A stretch of DNA of 64,000 bases from Escherichia coli (GCF_003334785.1 NZ_QOWV01000009.1); one strand, 5' to 3'. Positions 24,422 to 57,079 are shown, counted from the first letter of the stretch. The notes: generated by a model from the letters alone, not told the origin. Made by a program: numbers and translations.

Positions 24422-24505
24422 TGTAGGCATGATAAGACGCGCCAGCGTCGCATCAGGCATCGAGAGCCAAATGCCAGATGCGGCGTGAACGCCTTATCTG
24501 GCCTA
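24422..24505. repeat. REP pair (BIME) between ybaL and gsk
   Basis: GTAGGCATGATAAGACGCGCCAGCGTCGCATCAGGCA ... GATGCGGCGTGAACGCCTTATCTGGCCTAC. Confidence 0.85.
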
Positions 24506-31926: not shown

Positions 31927-33858
31927 TCAAATGGGGCGGATACTTTCTTCATCCAGCTCCGCATCGAAGAACCGACGCAGGGTCTGAATATTATTATCCG
32001 CAATAATGGACTCGCGCGCCTGCGCAAGTTTTTCTTCGTATATCGCCTGACGCCACTCCAGCGGCGTACGCACCGCGGGATTATCATCTTCAACGATAGT
32101 CAGTTCAACCGTTGAACCTTTTAACATGCTCAACGCTTCAGCCAGTTTTTGCTGTGCACCGCGGTTGTTCAAATGCCGCTGAGAGGAGCGCAAATGCAGA
32201 CATACTGCGTTGTCGCTCTCCTCTTTCCAGGCATTTAACGCCACCTGTTCGACCAGTTTTGGTAGCGAAAGTTGGCTCACCTGTGCCGCCCACGGGTCGC
32301 GCTCAATGGCTTCTGCCGCTAGCTTCGCCGCCAGTTCCGGCGTTTTTTCATGTTCCAGCGCTTTTTTCAGCGCCTTCGGCGTGGCGACCACTTCTTTTTG
32401 CTGCATCACCGGAGTGGTCGCCTTCCAGCGATACGCTTCTTTTTTGGCTGGCGCTTTTTCCAGCGCCGATGGCACCGGACGCGCCTGAACGCGATCGGTG
32501 ACCGAAGCCAGTCTTTCCAGCGCAGCGTTATTCACCGGCCGCGCGCGGGTAGCGGCTGCCGGTTCACTCTTTTTTGCTTTGGTTGCTCCCTGCACGCGCT
32601 GCAACTGCTGGCGCGCCGCCAGCACCTGGCTGGTGGTTTCCGGGAGCGGTACAGTCGGTGCCTGCTGCGGCGCTGATTGCGGTTGCGGCGGCACCTGGGT
32701 TGGCGTCATTACTGCCGTTGGCGCGACGGGTGCAAAGGACTGTCGTGGCACTTCTGGCTCAGGCAGCGGCATACGCGGATGGAATGCCAGCGCGCGCAGC
32801 AGCGTCATCTCAACGCCCATGCGACGGTCCGGCGCATACGGTAATTCTTTGCGACCAATCAACAGCGTCTGATAGTAAAGCTGAATATCCGTCGGCGGTA
32901 TGGTGCGCGCCAGTTCACGCATCCGCAGCTCGATGGCGGCCATGTCGTTGCCAAGTGCAGCAGGCGAAAGTTGTACCATCGCAATACGATGCAACAGGCC
33001 GAGCATTTCCACCAGCAACGCTTCCCACTCGATACCACGGGCAGCGGCTTCATTAATCAGCGCCATTACGCGCTCGCCGTTGGCCTCGACCATCGCTTCA
33101 ACCAGCGACAGCGCCTGATCGTCGTCAAGCGTACCCAGCATCGCACTGACCGCCTGGGTTGAAACCTGGCCGTCACCGCTGGCAATCGCCTGGTCGGTCA
33201 GACTTAAGGCATCTCGCAGGCTGCCTTCAGCGGCGCGTGCCAGCAATTGCAGCGCCCGCGGCTCGTGAGCGATATGTTCTTCGTTGAGGATGTGCTCAAG
33301 CTGATGGCGAATTTGCTCGACATCCAGCGCCTTGAGATGAAATTGCAGACAGCGTGACAAAATCGTCACCGGCAATTTCTGTGGATCGGTCGTCGCCAGC
33401 AGAAACTTAACGTGCTCCGGCGGCTCTTCAAGGGTTTTTAACAGTGCGTTAAAGCTGTGGCGCGACAGCATATGCACTTCGTCGATCAGATAAACTTTGA
33501 AACGACCACGCGCCGGAGCGTACTGGACGTTATCCAGCAGGTCGCGGGTATCTTCAACTTTGGTGCGCGAGGCGGCGTCGATTTCAATCAGATCGACAAA
33601 GCGCCCCTGCTCGATTTCACGACAGTTATCGCACACGCCGCACGGCGTCGCGGTAATGCCGGTTTCGCAGTTTAGCCCCTTCGCCAGCAGTCGGGCGATA
33701 GAGGTTTTTCCGACGCCACGGGTGCCGGAAAAAAGATAAGCATGATGAATACGCCCTAACGACAAGCCGTTCGCCAGTGCGGTCAGCACATGTTCCTGGC
33801 CGACGACGTCAGCAAAGGTTTGTGGGCGCCATTTTCGGGCTAAGACCTGATAACTCAT
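31927..33858 (-). CDS. dnaX: DNA polymerase III subunits tau (full length) and gamma (via -1 frameshift)
   Basis: AAA+ Walker A GTRGVGKTS; internal A AAA AAG slippery site at codons 428-430. Confidence 0.95.
   Translation of the reverse strand: MSYQVLARKWRPQTFADVVGQEHVLTALANGLSLGRIHHAYLFSGTRGVGKTSIARLLAKGLNCETGITATPCGVCDNCREIEQGRFVDLIEIDAASRTKVEDTRDLLDNVQYAPARGRFKVYLIDEVHMLSRHSFNALLKTLEEPPEHVKFLLATTDPQKLPVTILSRCLQFHLKALDVEQIRHQLEHILNEEHIAHEPRALQLLARAAEGSLRDALSLTDQAIASGDGQVSTQAVSAMLGTLDDDQALSLVEAMVEANGERVMALINEAAARGIEWEALLVEMLGLLHRIAMVQLSPAALGNDMAAIELRMRELARTIPPTDIQLYYQTLLIGRKELPYAPDRRMGVEMTLLRALAFHPRMPLPEPEVPRQSFAPVAPTAVMTPTQVPPQPQSAPQQAPTVPLPETTSQVLAARQQLQRVQGATKAKKSEPAAATRARPVNNAALERLASVTDRVQARPVPSALEKAPAKKEAYRWKATTPVMQQKEVVATPKALKKALEHEKTPELAAKLAAEAIERDPWAAQVSQLSLPKLVEQVALNAWKEESDNAVCLHLRSSQRHLNNRGAQQKLAEALSMLKGSTVELTIVEDDNPAVRTPLEWRQAIYEEKLAQARESIIADNNIQTLRRFFDAELDEESIRPI
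32564..32575 (-). other. dnaX: Programmed -1 ribosomal frameshift site in dnaX (A AAA AAG; -1 frame reads AAA AAA GAG TGA)
   Basis: Minus strand GCA AAA AAG AGT GAA at codons 428-432, followed by the GC-rich stem CCGGCAGCCGCTACCCGCGCGCGGCCGG. Confidence 0.9.
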
Positions 33859-49388: not shown

Positions 49389-49502
49389 GGGTGGGGGCCC
49401 TGCCAGCTACATCCCGGCACACGCGTCATCTGCCTTGGCTGCTTCCTTCCGGACCTGACCTGGTAAACAGAGTAGCGTTGCGGGAGAACCAACAGAGCCC
49501 CC
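49389..49502 (-). ncRNA. ffs: 4.5S RNA (signal recognition particle RNA)
   Basis: Minus strand reads GGGGGCTCTGTTGGTTCTCCCGCAACGCTACTCTGTTTACCAGGTCAGGTCCGGAAGGAAGCAGCCAAGGCAGATGACGCGTGTGCCGGGATGTAGCTGGCAGGGCCCCCACCC, 114 nt, matching the 4.5S RNA sequence as I recall it. Confidence 0.93.
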
Positions 49503-51697: not shown

Positions 51698-52984
51698 TTA
51701 CGCGTTATAGGCATTCTCGCCGTGGCTGTTGACATCCAGCCCTTCTCGCTCCTGCTCTTCCGGTACACGCAGACCAACCGTCAGATCCGCCAATTTGTAG
51801 CCGATAAATGCCACAACACCGGACCAGACGATCGTAATGGCGATGCTTTCCAGCTGTACCAGCAACTGATGGCCCATCGTCACACCTTCAGCGAAGCCCA
51901 CGCCGCCCAGCGAGCTGGCGGCAAAAATCCCGGTCATGATACAGCCGACAATGCCACAAACGCCGTGCACACCGAAGACATCGCAGGGATCATCCACCCG
52001 CAGCAAGCGTTTGAGCATGGTAACGCCCCACAAGCCCGCCAGACCAGCTACCACGCCGATAATCAACGCGCCGCCAACCCCAATGTAGCCGCAGGCTGGC
52101 GTCACGCCGACCAGACCGGCAATCGCGCCAGAACACGCCCCCAGCAGTGAAGGCTTACCACGCAGCGCCCATTCACCGAAGATCCAGCCAAGAATTGCCG
52201 CCGCCGTTGCGACCACAGTATTCACAAATGCCAGTGCCGCGATTTCATTCGCCGTGCCCGCTGACCCGGCGTTAAAGCCAAACCAACCGATATAGAGAAT
52301 GGCAGTCCCGGTGAAGACCATCGGCAGGTTGTGCGGTTTAAACGCCTCTTTACCGAAGCCCACGCGTTTTCCTATCAGATACGCGCCCACCAGACCGGCG
52401 ATTGCGGCGTTAATGTGCACCACGGTGCCACCCGCGAAATCCAGCGCACCGTGAGAAGCCAGCAAACCACCGCCCCACACCATATGCGCAATCGGAATGT
52501 AAGAGAGCGTCAGCCATACCACCACGAAAATCAACACAGCTGAGAAGCGGATTCGTTCCGCCAGCGCCCCAACTATCAAGCCGACGGTAATGCAGGCAAA
52601 CGATCCCTGAAACGCCACGTGGATATACTGATAAATGCTGCCCATCACCGCCGTCAGTTCGATGTTTTTCAGCATCAACCAGTTAATGTTGCCGAAGAAG
52701 TTGTTGCCCTCACCAAACGCCAGCGAGTAACCGTAAACCACCCAGAGAATACAGACCAGTGCAAATGTCACCGTCACCTGCGTCAGCATCGACAGCACGT
52801 TTTTGCCGCGAATCAACCCACCGTAAAACAGGGCAATCCCCGGAATAGTCATAAACAGCACCAGCGCAGTACAAATCATCATAAACGCATTGTCGGCTTT
52901 ATCGGCCACCGCAGGTGCAGCCATTACCAGTCCCGGAAGCATCGCCAGTGAAGCAAGCCCAGTTTTTATCGTCGCTATCTTCAT
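51698..52984 (-). CDS. amtB: Ammonium channel (Amt family)
   Basis: 428 aa with signal peptide and 11 TM helices; immediately downstream of glnK. Confidence 0.95.
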   Translation of the reverse strand: MKIATIKTGLASLAMLPGLVMAAPAVADKADNAFMMICTALVLFMTIPGIALFYGGLIRGKNVLSMLTQVTVTFALVCILWVVYGYSLAFGEGNNFFGNINWLMLKNIELTAVMGSIYQYIHVAFQGSFACITVGLIVGALAERIRFSAVLIFVVVWLTLSYIPIAHMVWGGGLLASHGALDFAGGTVVHINAAIAGLVGAYLIGKRVGFGKEAFKPHNLPMVFTGTAILYIGWFGFNAGSAGTANEIAALAFVNTVVATAAAILGWIFGEWALRGKPSLLGACSGAIAGLVGVTPACGYIGVGGALIIGVVAGLAGLWGVTMLKRLLRVDDPCDVFGVHGVCGIVGCIMTGIFAASSLGGVGFAEGVTMGHQLLVQLESIAITIVWSGVVAFIGYKLADLTVGLRVPEEQEREGLDVNSHGENAYNA

Positions 52985-53013
52985 TTTTCGTTCCTGTTGC
53001 TGTGTGCCAGAGA

Positions 53014-53352
53014 TTACAGCGCCGCTTCGTCGGCTTCGCCGGTACGAATACGAATGACGCGTTGCAATTCAGCGACGAAGATTTTGCCGTCGCCAATTTT
53101 TCCGGTGTAAGCCGCCTTACTGACGATATCGATCACTTCATCGAGTTGGTCATCAGCAATCGCCACATCAATTTTTACTTTTGGCAGGAAATTGACGCTG
53201 TATTCCGCCCCCCGGTACAGCTCGGCATGCCCTTTCTGACGCCCGAAACCTTTCACTTCGGTGACGGTCAGGCCCTGAATACCAATGGAAGATAACGCTT
53301 CACGAACGTCTTCCAGCTTGAATGGTTTGATTATCACGGTCACCAGCTTCAT
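53014..53352 (-). CDS. glnK: Nitrogen regulatory protein PII-2
   Basis: 112-aa PII protein MKLVTVIIKPFKLEDVREAL... with T-loop RGAEY (uridylylation Tyr51); start at 53352. Confidence 0.95.
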   Translation of the reverse strand: MKLVTVIIKPFKLEDVREALSSIGIQGLTVTEVKGFGRQKGHAELYRGAEYSVNFLPKVKIDVAIADDQLDEVIDIVSKAAYTGKIGDGKIFVAELQRVIRIRTGEADEAAL

Positions 53353-53403
53353 AGATCCCCTCCGGTCAGAATTCGGTAATGGTTCTGCTACACGAAGAAG
53401 GTA

Positions 53404-53420
53404 TTGCAAGCGGTGTGCCA
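53404..53420 (-). promoter_or_regulatory. sigma54 (-24/-12) promoter of glnK-amtB
   Basis: Minus strand TGGCAC-ACCGC-TTGCAA, a perfect match to TGGCAC-N5-TTGCA, about 50 nt upstream of the glnK start. Confidence 0.8.
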
Positions 53421-53473
53421 GAAATGAAAAACGAGAAAGAGAGCAGGAAGTTAAGAAGTTTGAAAATGAAAAC

Positions 53474-53488
53474 GCACTATGACAGTGC
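53474..53488. promoter_or_regulatory. Candidate NtrC enhancer site upstream of the glnK sigma54 promoter
   Basis: Palindrome GCACT-ATGAC-AGTGC resembling the NtrC consensus TGCACCA-N3-TGGTGCA, about 60 bp upstream of the -24 element. Confidence 0.55.
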
Positions 53489-53532
53489 ACAGTGCGTTAC
53501 ATTTTTGCACCAACGATGAAATATTGCGCTAT

Positions 53533-57079
<3,547 letters not shown>

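What the first reader, a model, noticed from the sequence alone, without database searches (positions are those of the whole stretch)
53353..53532. glnK-amtB control region with perfect sigma54 promoter and palindromic enhancer
TGGCAC-N5-TTGCA is an exact -24/-12 match, about 50 nt upstream of glnK. A GCACT-N5-AGTGC palindrome lies about 60 bp further upstream at NtrC-like enhancer distance. This is the classical architecture, recoverable from sequence alone.
Basis: partly seen in the sequence, partly recalled or inferred. Interest (0 to 1): 0.25.

Follow-up and report, generated by a model that had tools for sequence, protein, structure and literature searches.

The report
E. coli glnK-amtB sigma-54 promoter

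Summary
Both motifs are in the sequence, on the minus strand. The window is E. coli K-12, and 53353-53532 is exactly the mdlB-glnK spacer. TGGCAC-N5-TTGCA lies at 53420-53405, with a predicted +1 near 53394, 42 nt before the glnK ATG. The GCACT-N5-AGTGC dyad lies at 53474-53488, centred at about -87. Each occurs once in the window (0.06 and 0.13 expected by chance).

Published sigma-54 ChIP-seq and gSELEX report this exact 17-mer. NtrC ChIP-seq and gSELEX place NtrC in this spacer, and glnK mRNA depends on glnG.

My footprint of 15 Enterobacterales shows the dyad and the -24/-12 core invariant, while the spacer between them varies in length. A second, weaker NtrC-like site adjoins the dyad, which fits the published "weak enhancer".

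Two additions:
- The dyad forms the 3' arm of a strong hairpin followed by a T-run, 35 nt after the co-oriented mdlB stop. This is a candidate terminator conserved in nine species, but no Term-seq 3' end is reported there.
- The CT-rich stretch at the start site pairs with the glnK Shine-Dalgarno only in read-through RNA, as in the published "insulator" model.

The parts
53405..53420 (-). Sigma-54 core promoter glnKp: TGGCAC (53420-53415), N5 = ACCGC, TTGCA (53409-53405). The -24 GG is at 53419-53418 and the -12 GC at 53407-53406.
   Evidence: Only exact match in the window. Identical to the published sigma-54 ChIP-seq and gSELEX motif. TGGCA and TTGC are invariant in 15 Enterobacterales.
53394..53394 (-). 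Predicted transcription start (+1, give or take 1-2 nt), which gives a 42-nt 5' UTR. This is inferred, not mapped.
   Evidence: It lies 12 nt downstream of the C of the -12 GC and 19 nt downstream of the motif centre, the same rule Bonocora et al. used to obtain their distance of 42.
53473..53489 (-). NtrC site 1, TGCACTGTCATAGTGCG, centred at 53481, about -87.
   Evidence: Matches TGCACCAnnnTGGTGCA at 10 of 14 positions and is the best-scoring 17-mer in the spacer (consensus). GCAC...T.GTGCG is invariant in 15 species. NtrC binding is shown at region level only.
53493..53522 (-). Second conserved enhancer block with two overlapping candidate weak NtrC sites: TGCAAAAATGTAACGCA (53509-53493, centre -107, 9/14) and ATTTCATCGTTGGTGCA (53522-53506, centre -120, perfect right half TGGTGCA).
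   Evidence: Scores. The block TGGTGCAAAAATGTAACGCA is conserved across Escherichia, Citrobacter and Enterobacter, and a GCA-N10-GC frame is kept in 13 of 15 species. Which frame is actually bound is not resolved.
53461..53498 (-). Intrinsic-terminator-like element on the transcribed strand: stem AACGCACTGTG / CATAGTGCGTT (11 bp), loop CACTGT, then TTTTCATTTTCA. It starts 35 nt after the mdlB stop codon, and its 3' arm is the right half of NtrC site 1.
   Evidence: Found by the pattern scan. The hairpin alone folds at -14.4 kcal/mol (z -3.9); with the flanking A- and U-tracts it folds at -18.2 (z -4.55). Stem and T-run are kept in 9 species, with 92% of cells paired and one compensatory pair. 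No experimental 3' end was found.
53421..53472 (-). T- and CT-rich spacer of 52 bp between the enhancer and the -24 element. It includes the distal CT-rich run CTTCCTGCTCTCTTTCTC (53450-53433).
   Evidence: Length and sequence vary among 15 species, and E. coli and E. albertii have the shortest version. Levy et al. define the distal CT-rich region of glnKp.
53394..53401 (-). Proximal CT-rich element CCTTCTTC (-7 to +1), a candidate anti-Shine-Dalgarno that is present only in transcripts reading through from upstream.
   Evidence: In a read-through RNA it pairs with the glnK SD. In the RNA that starts at +1 the SD sits in a loop. Levy et al. found that mutating the 7-nt CT-rich region centred at -4 relieved silencing.
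53353..53393 (-). glnK 5' UTR, with the Shine-Dalgarno GGAGGGG at 53363-53357.
   Evidence: Read directly from the sequence. GGAG..G and the ATG are conserved.
53014..53352 (-). glnK coding sequence (112 aa, PII-family nitrogen regulator).
   Evidence: ORF and translation; RefSeq annotation of identical DNA.
51698..52984 (-). amtB coding sequence (428 aa, ammonium transporter), the second gene of the operon.
   Evidence: amtB lies downstream of glnK in most of the 79 loci examined.
53533..55428 (-). mdlB (ABC exporter), the upstream gene in the same orientation. Its stop codon TGA is at 53535-53533. The listed ORF start is upstream of the true start.
   Evidence: The order mdlB->glnK->amtB is kept in all 14 Enterobacterales loci.

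Best explanation
The 180-bp spacer is the nitrogen-regulated control region of the E. coli glnK-amtB operon, on the minus strand.

How it works. RNA polymerase carrying sigma-54 binds TGGCAC-N5-TTGCA (53420-53405) as a closed complex that cannot open DNA by itself. When glutamine is low, NtrB phosphorylates NtrC. NtrC~P dimers bind the dyad TGCACTGTCATAGTGCG (centre about -87) and the adjoining weaker site or sites (centres about -107 and -120). There they assemble into the active ATPase oligomer, contact the polymerase by looping out the roughly 50-bp T-rich spacer, and drive open-complex formation. Transcription should start near 53394 and yield a 42-nt leader, then glnK, then amtB. Because the sites match the consensus only moderately, the enhancer is weak and the operon turns on late, only at high NtrC~P.

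What is shown:
- the motifs themselves, their uniqueness in the window and their conservation;
- published sigma-54 and NtrC occupancy of this spacer;
- published dependence of glnK mRNA on glnG.

What is inferred:
- the exact start site;
- which bases NtrC contacts;
- the looping geometry.

Secondary layer, inferred. The same spacer also shields glnK from mdlAB read-through in two ways: a terminator-like hairpin that shares bases with NtrC site 1, and a CT-rich anti-SD element at -7 to +1.
For: - The window is E. coli K-12 at mdlB-glnK-amtB.
- Both motifs are exact, single occurrences, with 0.06 and 0.13 expected by chance.
- Sigma-54 ChIP-seq peak OS03 carries the identical 17-mer with FAT 18. 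RpoN gSELEX reports the same 17-mer.
- An NtrC ChIP-seq peak lies at glnK-amtB, and glnK mRNA is lost in a glnG deletion and restored by complementation. NtrC gSELEX also gives a peak in this spacer.
- glnKp transcription 'depends exclusively' on NtrC activation and rises about 400-fold on ammonium starvation.
- Site 1 matches the NtrC box TGCACCAnnnTGGTGCA at 10 of 14 positions.
- In 15 Enterobacterales the dyad and the -24/-12 core are the invariant blocks, while the spacer between them varies in length, as expected for an enhancer.
- Across 79 proteobacterial glnK loci, a sigma-54-like motif is on the sense strand in 59 and on the antisense control in 0. An exact GCAC-N7-GTGC dyad lies upstream in 35, against 0 of 78 control windows, and it is upstream of the promoter in 30 of 32 loci that have both.
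- No sigma-70-like promoter is found in the spacer.
- The literature calls the glnK enhancer weaker than that of glnAp2.
Against: - I could not read a base-resolution NtrC footprint or a mapped start site. The primary papers (van Heeswijk 1996, Atkinson 2002, Zimmer 2000) are not held. Bonocora et al. record the promoter as only 'Predicted' in EcoCyc.
- The published NtrC ChIP-seq interval corresponds to window 53353-53433. It covers the core promoter rather than the dyad. The same offset appears at glnH and gltI, so it probably reflects resolution or a looping cross-link.
- Site 1 scores only 10/14, and 17-mers scoring that well occur about once per kb in the window. On sequence alone it would be weak evidence.
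- The second site is ambiguous: there are two overlapping frames.
Confidence: 0.95

Rival explanations
1. Dual-use element. The palindrome is both NtrC site 1 at the DNA level and the 3' arm of the Rho-independent terminator of the upstream mdlAB operon at the RNA level. A single element of about 40 bp would then end one transcription unit and enhance the next. This adds to the main explanation rather than replacing it.
For: - The terminator-pattern scan hits 53498-53471 on the minus strand, with the tail TTCATTTTCA.
- The hairpin folds at -14.4 kcal/mol alone and -18.2 with the flanking A- and U-tracts (z -3.9 and -4.55; no shuffle of 200 folds as well). The NtrC dyad folded on itself reaches only -6.4.
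- It begins 35 nt after the stop codon of the co-oriented mdlB, and this synteny holds in all 14 Enterobacterales loci.
- The extended stem and T-run are conserved in 9 species while the sequence just downstream is not. 92% of cells are paired, and one pair switches U-A to C-G at a position outside any NtrC 17-mer on its 5' side.
- The Klebsiella sp. orthologue is a textbook terminator: a 13-bp stem followed by eight U's.
Against: - There is no 3' end at the predicted position (MG1655 about 471703-471712) and no mdlB or glnK entry in the complete curated Term-seq tables of Adams et al. 2021 or in the TERMITe supplements. mdlAB may simply be too weakly expressed to register.
- The simple terminator pattern is expected 0.9 times by chance in this 900-bp scan.
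- Only one compensatory pair is seen, probably a single evolutionary event; my rough estimate is a chance probability of about 0.17.
- The left arm ACGCA could be conserved as the half-site of NtrC site 2, and the T-run as a DNA-bending tract.
- Yersinia, Rahnella, Photorhabdus and Acerihabitans keep the dyad but have no T-run.
Confidence: 0.4
2. Terminator only. The palindrome is just the mdlB terminator, and NtrC actually binds elsewhere, for example the TGGTGCA block at 53512-53506.
For: The same hairpin and T-run evidence as above. TGGTGCA at 53512-53506 is a perfect right half of the NtrC consensus.
Against: - A terminator constrains pairing, not sequence. Here GCAC...T.GTGCG is invariant in all 15 species, including six with no T-run and no extended stem.
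- It is the best NtrC-box match in the spacer.
- GCAC-N7-GTGC dyads lie upstream of the sigma-54 promoter of glnK in 30 loci from many families that lack mdlB upstream.
Confidence: 0.03
3. Chance or non-productive site. The motifs co-occur by chance, or sigma-54 merely sits here without transcribing, as at many intragenic sites, and glnK is expressed from another promoter.
For: With one mismatch allowed the motifs are no rarer than chance. Bonocora et al. show many sigma-54 sites with no transcriptional output, including one in this window, in ybaT.
Against: - Both motifs are exact, correctly oriented, correctly spaced from the gene and conserved.
- No sigma-70-like promoter is found in the spacer.
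- glnK mRNA requires glnG and is induced by nitrogen starvation.
Confidence: 0.01

Closest known systems
E. coli glnKp, the sigma-54/NtrC-dependent promoter of glnK-amtB (van Heeswijk et al. 1996; Atkinson et al. 2002; Bonocora et al. 2015, site OS03)
   Same: It is the same locus. The DNA is 100% identical to MG1655, and the promoter 17-mer is identical to the published ChIP-seq and gSELEX motif.
   Different: Nothing differs. The window simply shows the region on the opposite strand to the MG1655 numbering (MG1655 coordinate = 525174 minus window coordinate).
glnAp2, the textbook NtrC enhancer-dependent promoter of E. coli glnA
   Same: A sigma-54 -24/-12 core, with upstream NtrC dyads that activate by DNA looping.
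   Different: glnAp2 has two high-affinity sites centred at -108 and -140, which make a 'potent enhancer'. glnK has one moderate site (10/14) at about -87 and one or more weak sites (9/14) at about -107 and -120. These lie closer to the promoter and form a weaker enhancer that fires later.
CT-rich anti-Shine-Dalgarno 'insulator' in sigma-54 promoters (Levy et al., bioRxiv 10.1101/086108)
   Same: glnKp was their founding example. The CCTTCTTC element at -7 to +1 pairs with the SD in my fold of the native read-through RNA, matching their mutational hotspot centred at -4.
   Different: Their assays used synthetic constructs with a reporter RBS. Here the pairing is with the native glnK SD and is only predicted, and the overall fold is no more stable than shuffled sequence (z +0.38).
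Rho-independent (intrinsic) terminators
   Same: A stable stem-loop followed by a U-rich tract, preceded by an A-tract, and placed shortly after a stop codon.
   Different: The stem is only moderately GC-rich (5 of 11 pairs), a CA interrupts the U-tract, no 3' end has been mapped, and half of the stem is also a transcription-factor binding site.

Membership tests
Sigma-54 (RpoN)-dependent promoter | GG and GC doublets exactly 10 bp apart within TGGCAC-N5-TTGCW, oriented toward the gene | tested here: met
   TGGCACACCGCTTGCA at 53420-53405 (-) is an exact, unique match in the window.
Sigma-54 (RpoN)-dependent promoter | Conservation of the -24/-12 elements at the orthologous position | tested here: met
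   TGGCA and TTGC are invariant in 15 Enterobacterales, 43-88 nt from the ATG. Across 79 loci a match with at most 2 mismatches is on the sense strand in 59 and on the antisense strand in 0.
Sigma-54 (RpoN)-dependent promoter | Occupancy by sigma-54 holoenzyme | not testable with these tools
   From the literature only: ChIP-seq peak OS03 with FAT 18 and an RpoN-holoenzyme gSELEX peak with the same motif.
Sigma-54 (RpoN)-dependent promoter | Transcription starts about 12 nt downstream of the GC element and requires rpoN | not testable with these tools
   +1 is predicted at about 53394. No mapped 5' end was found in the papers I could read, and EcoCyc status was 'Predicted' according to Bonocora et al..
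NtrC (NRI)-dependent enhancer / UAS | 17-bp dyad resembling TGCACCAnnnTGGTGCA | tested here: met
   TGCACTGTCATAGTGCG matches at 10 of 14 positions, with GCAC-N7-GTGC intact, and is the top score in the spacer. It is invariant in 15 species.
NtrC (NRI)-dependent enhancer / UAS | At least two sites, so that NtrC~P dimers can oligomerise | tested here: inconclusive
   A conserved adjacent block holds two overlapping weak candidates, 9/14 at -107 and a perfect half-site at -120. Which one is used cannot be decided without a footprint.
NtrC (NRI)-dependent enhancer / UAS | Located upstream of the sigma-54 promoter at a distance that can vary | tested here: met
   The centre is at about -87 in E. 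coli. The dyad-to-ATG distance ranges from -129 to -219 in other Enterobacterales while both elements stay conserved.
NtrC (NRI)-dependent enhancer / UAS | NtrC binding, and glnG-dependent, nitrogen-regulated expression | not testable with these tools
   From the literature: NtrC ChIP-seq and gSELEX at region level, and glnK mRNA absent in a glnG deletion and about 400-fold regulated.
Intrinsic (Rho-independent) terminator, of mdlAB | Stable stem-loop immediately followed by a U-rich tract, downstream of a co-oriented stop codon | tested here: met
   An 11-bp stem at -14.4 kcal/mol followed by UUUUCAUUUUC, 35 nt after the mdlB TGA.
Intrinsic (Rho-independent) terminator, of mdlAB | Pairing maintained in evolution through compensatory changes | tested here: inconclusive
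   92% of cells are paired in 9 species, but only one pair changes on both sides (U-A in 4, C-G in 5), probably a single event. The feature is absent in 6 more distant species.
Intrinsic (Rho-independent) terminator, of mdlAB | Mapped RNA 3' end in the U-tract | tested here: not met
   There is no entry at MG1655 4717(0|1)x and none for mdlB or glnK in two Term-seq resources. Low mdlAB expression could explain the absence, so this is weak negative evidence.
Anti-SD 'insulator' of sigma-54 promoters (Levy et al.) | CT-rich 3-5-mers within 25 bp upstream of the start site that can pair with the downstream SD | tested here: met
   CCUUCUUC (53401-53394) pairs with CCGGAGGGG in the read-through RNA. 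The SD is unpaired in the RNA that starts at +1.

The most novel reading that the evidence does not exclude
In E. coli and its close relatives, one element of about 40 bp (53461-53498) may do two jobs. As RNA it would be the intrinsic terminator of the upstream mdlAB operon. As DNA its 3' arm is the main NtrC enhancer site of glnK-amtB. Together with the anti-SD element at the start site, this would give a two-layer shield that keeps glnK silent unless sigma-54 and NtrC fire. The tandem GCACTGT repeat and the conserved T-run would be the marks of that dual constraint.
Probability: 0.35. Interest if true: 0.3.

Novelty: already known. Interest (0 to 1): 0.08.

Why it matters
glnKp is a standard reporter of NtrC activity and a standard synthetic-biology part, so confirming it adds nothing new. 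The finding does show that a reader working from sequence alone can correctly recover a sigma-54/NtrC architecture.

The only point with some value is the possible overlap of a terminator with an enhancer site. If real, it would be a neat example of two signals, one read as RNA and one as DNA, packed into a 180-bp spacer. It would also matter to anyone who takes the 'glnK UAS' out of context as a genetic part, because the part would carry a terminator on one strand.

Tried and rejected
- Primary mapping papers. I tried to read Atkinson et al. 2002 (PMC135341 and by DOI), Reitzer & Schneider 2001 (PMC99035), van Heeswijk et al. 2013 (PMC3973380) and Zimmer et al. 2000. None is held, so I could not compare my sites with a published footprint.
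- Supplements. Those of Levy et al. and of the NtrC ChIP-exo paper are not held.
- Experimental 3' end for the candidate terminator. I looked in Adams 2021, Dar & Sorek 2018, Choe 2022 and TERMITe 2025. Two have no supplements held, and two have complete tables with no entry.
- Separate mdlB terminators in distant species. None was found in Yersinia or Rahnella. Photorhabdus has one candidate just downstream of its NtrC site.
- Rfam at gathering threshold finds no RNA family in the spacer.
- Sigma-70 promoter scan: none in 52900-53800.
- Considered and rejected: a chance co-occurrence of motifs; a non-productive sigma-54 site; a CRP-like or other dyad, since no match was seen by eye. I do not claim an IHF site in the spacer, because TTTCAAACTTCTTA is only a partial resemblance.
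- I did not extend species sampling with a metagenome scan or protein searches. The cost was not justified for a locus that is already known.

Full report
**1. What the window is**

The region around the finding is 100% identical to E. coli K-12 MG1655 and occurs once in 5,424 of 5,426 complete E. coli genomes. RefSeq annotates the genes there as mdlB, glnK and amtB. All three are on the minus strand of the window:
- mdlB ends with TGA at 53535-53533;
- glnK runs 53352->53014;
- amtB runs 52984->51698.

The finding's coordinates, 53353-53532, are exactly the 180-bp mdlB-glnK spacer. MG1655 coordinate = 525174 minus window coordinate. I checked this mapping against two published sigma-54 motif centres.

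**2. The observation**

Read on the minus strand, the spacer contains TGGCAC-ACCGC-TTGCA at 53420-53405. It is the only exact match to TGGCAC-N5-TTGCA in the 64 kb, with 0.06 expected.

The palindrome GCACT-ATGAC-AGTGC lies at 53474-53488 and is also a unique exact match, with 0.13 expected. With one mismatch allowed, neither pattern is unusual across the window. The weight therefore comes from exactness, placement and conservation.

- 52 nt from the promoter edge to the ATG;
- a 53-bp gap between the palindrome and the -24 element.

**3. Published evidence for this very sequence**

- Bonocora et al. list sigma-54 ChIP-seq peak OS03 with motif CTGGCACACCGCTTGCA, FAT 18. Their predicted start is 42 nt from glnK, which is window 53394.
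- Shimada et al. recover the same 17-mer by gSELEX with RpoN holoenzyme. They also find an NtrC gSELEX peak in the mdlB/glnK spacer.
- Brown et al. report an NtrC ChIP-seq peak at glnK-amtB. They show that glnK mRNA is not readily detected in a glnG deletion and is restored by complementation.
- Schumacher et al. use glnKp as the 'simpler' promoter that depends exclusively on NtrC activation, with about 400-fold regulation.
- A later paper, citing Atkinson et al. [quoted passage not shown]

There are two caveats. Bonocora et al. flag the promoter as only 'Predicted' in EcoCyc. And I could not read any paper that gives a mapped start site or a base-resolution NtrC footprint.

**4. My own evidence: a phylogenetic footprint**

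A scan of one genome per species with the GlnK protein returned 79 loci. Fourteen are Enterobacterales, and all of them keep the order mdlB->glnK->amtB.

I aligned their upstream regions with the window, 15 sequences in all. Two blocks are invariant:
- GCAC...T.GTGCG, the palindrome extended to the 17-mer TGCACTGTCATAGTGCG (53489-53473);
- TGGCA...TTGC.

The DNA between these blocks varies freely in sequence and in length. E. coli and E. albertii have the shortest spacer, 52 bp. This is the expected signature of an enhancer plus a promoter.

The 17-mer matches the NtrC box TGCACCAnnnTGGTGCA at 10 of 14 positions and is the best match in the spacer.

A second conserved block lies immediately upstream: TGGTGCAAAAATGTAACGCA. 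It holds two overlapping weaker candidates:
- TGCAAAAATGTAACGCA, 9/14, centred at -107, two helical turns from site 1;
- ATTTCATCGTTGGTGCA, centred at -120, with a perfect right half.

One moderate site plus weak sites fits the published 'weak enhancer'.

The arrangement is widespread. Across all 79 loci, a sigma-54-like motif lies on the sense strand upstream of glnK in 59, against 0 on the antisense control. An exact GCAC-N7-GTGC dyad is present in 35, against 0 of 78 control windows. The dyad lies upstream of the promoter in 30 of the 32 loci that have both.

Within E. coli, the few SNPs in the sampled strains fall outside the core motifs.

**5. Mechanism**

This section rests on established knowledge of sigma-54 and NtrC systems, applied to this locus.
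- Sigma-54 holoenzyme sits at -24/-12 as a closed complex.
- NtrC~P is formed by NtrB when PII is uridylylated at low glutamine.
- NtrC~P binds the dyads and oligomerises.
- It loops to the polymerase and uses ATP to open the promoter.
- The result is a 42-nt leader followed by glnK-amtB.

The motifs, their conservation, the occupancy and the genetic dependence are shown. The exact +1, the contacted bases and the loop are inferred. No sigma-70-like promoter is present in the spacer.

**6.

On the transcribed strand the palindrome is part of a larger hairpin:
- stem AACGCACTGTG / CATAGTGCGTT;
- loop CACTGT;
- followed by TTTTCATTTTCA;
- starting 35 nt after the mdlB stop.

The terminator-pattern scan flags it. 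It folds at -14.4 kcal/mol alone and at -18.2 with the flanking A- and U-tracts (z -3.9 and -4.55). The NtrC dyad folded on itself reaches only -6.4.

The extended stem and the T-run are kept in nine species of the Escherichia-Citrobacter-Enterobacter-Klebsiella group. In those species 92% of cells are paired. One pair is U-A in four species and C-G in five, and its 5' partner lies in the 3-bp linker outside either NtrC 17-mer. In Klebsiella sp. BIGb0407 the orthologue is a 13-bp stem followed by eight U's.

Evidence against a working terminator:
- The simple pattern is expected about 0.9 times by chance in the scanned 900 bp.
- The covariation is probably a single event.
- The 5' arm overlaps candidate NtrC site 2.
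- The six more distant species keep the dyad but have no T-run.
- Two Term-seq resources list no 3' end here.

I rate a functional mdlAB terminator at about 0.35-0.4. The 'terminator only' alternative is very unlikely, because the sequence of the dyad, and not just its pairing, is invariant, including in species with no hairpin extension.

**7. The CT-rich elements**

Levy et al. showed in synthetic constructs that the 50-bp glnKp silences translation of a downstream gene on read-through transcripts. They traced this mainly to a 7-nt CT-rich stretch centred at -4.

I folded two versions of the native RNA:
- In an RNA that starts upstream, CCUUCUUC (53401-53394) pairs with the glnK SD, CCGGAGGGG.
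- In the RNA that starts at the predicted +1, this element is missing and the SD sits in a loop.

The whole fold is no more stable than shuffled sequence, so this is a local pairing that is consistent with their model and does not prove it.

**8. Verdict**

The finding is real and correctly interpreted, and it describes a textbook, experimentally studied promoter. Novelty is 'already known' and interest is low. The possible terminator/enhancer overlap is the only loose end worth a bench test.

Noticed in passing
window 12629-12644 (-): A second near-consensus sigma-54 motif, TGGCACTGGTTTTGCT, which matches TGGCAC-N5-TTGCW exactly. It is the known intragenic sigma-54 binding site IS02 inside ybaT (Bonocora et al. 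2015; motif centre 512537, PSSM 12.1, higher than glnK's).
   Followed up: yes
L082 (E. coli isolate 30859_5#287, NZ_OZ040756.1), locus 226-286: An IS1 element is inserted in the glnK 5' UTR right after ...GAATTCTG, between glnKp and the Shine-Dalgarno. In this isolate that should uncouple glnK-amtB from its sigma-54 promoter.
   Followed up: partly
window 53482-53495 (-): A tandem direct repeat, GCACTGT GCACTGT, spans the junction between the candidate second NtrC site and site 1. It gives the right half-site AGTGC two alternative pairing partners.
   Followed up: partly
L003, L004, L005, L008, L009 (about 62 bp upstream of the site-1 orthologue): A third NtrC-like site, GCACCAnAATCAGGCA, is conserved in Enterobacter, Yersinia, Rahnella and Acerihabitans. 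It is absent in Escherichia and Citrobacter, where the 3' end of mdlB occupies that position. The E. coli lineage seems to have a trimmed enhancer.
   Followed up: partly
window 53421-53472 versus A1 columns 120-235: E. coli and E. albertii have the shortest enhancer-to-promoter spacer (52 bp) of the 15 Enterobacterales; the others carry about 10-60 extra bp. This puts the E. coli NtrC site unusually close, at about -87.
   Followed up: no
MG1655 471741-471821 = window 53353-53433: The NtrC ChIP-seq 'peak' intervals of Brown et al. 2014 at glnK, glnH and gltI coincide with the sigma-54 core-promoter coordinates of Bonocora et al., not with the upstream NtrC sites. This may reflect limited resolution or cross-linking through the DNA loop.
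   Followed up: no
window 17187-17365, 24426-24503, 18663-18746, 32530-32594, 49398-49494: Rfam gathering-level hits elsewhere in the window: naRNA4/REP-type repeats (three copies), sroB (ChiX) sRNA, the dnaX frameshift element, and 4.5S RNA (ffs). All are expected for this part of the E. coli K-12 chromosome.
   Followed up: no
L015-L043 (Pseudomonas and Stutzerimonas loci), about 160-240 nt upstream of glnK: A conserved sigma-54-like motif, TGGCAAGCTTTCTGCT, lies about 200 nt upstream of glnK in many Pseudomonas species. This is a much longer leader than in enterics, and most of these loci have no NtrC-box match with 4 or fewer mismatches in the 300 bp scanned.
   Followed up: no
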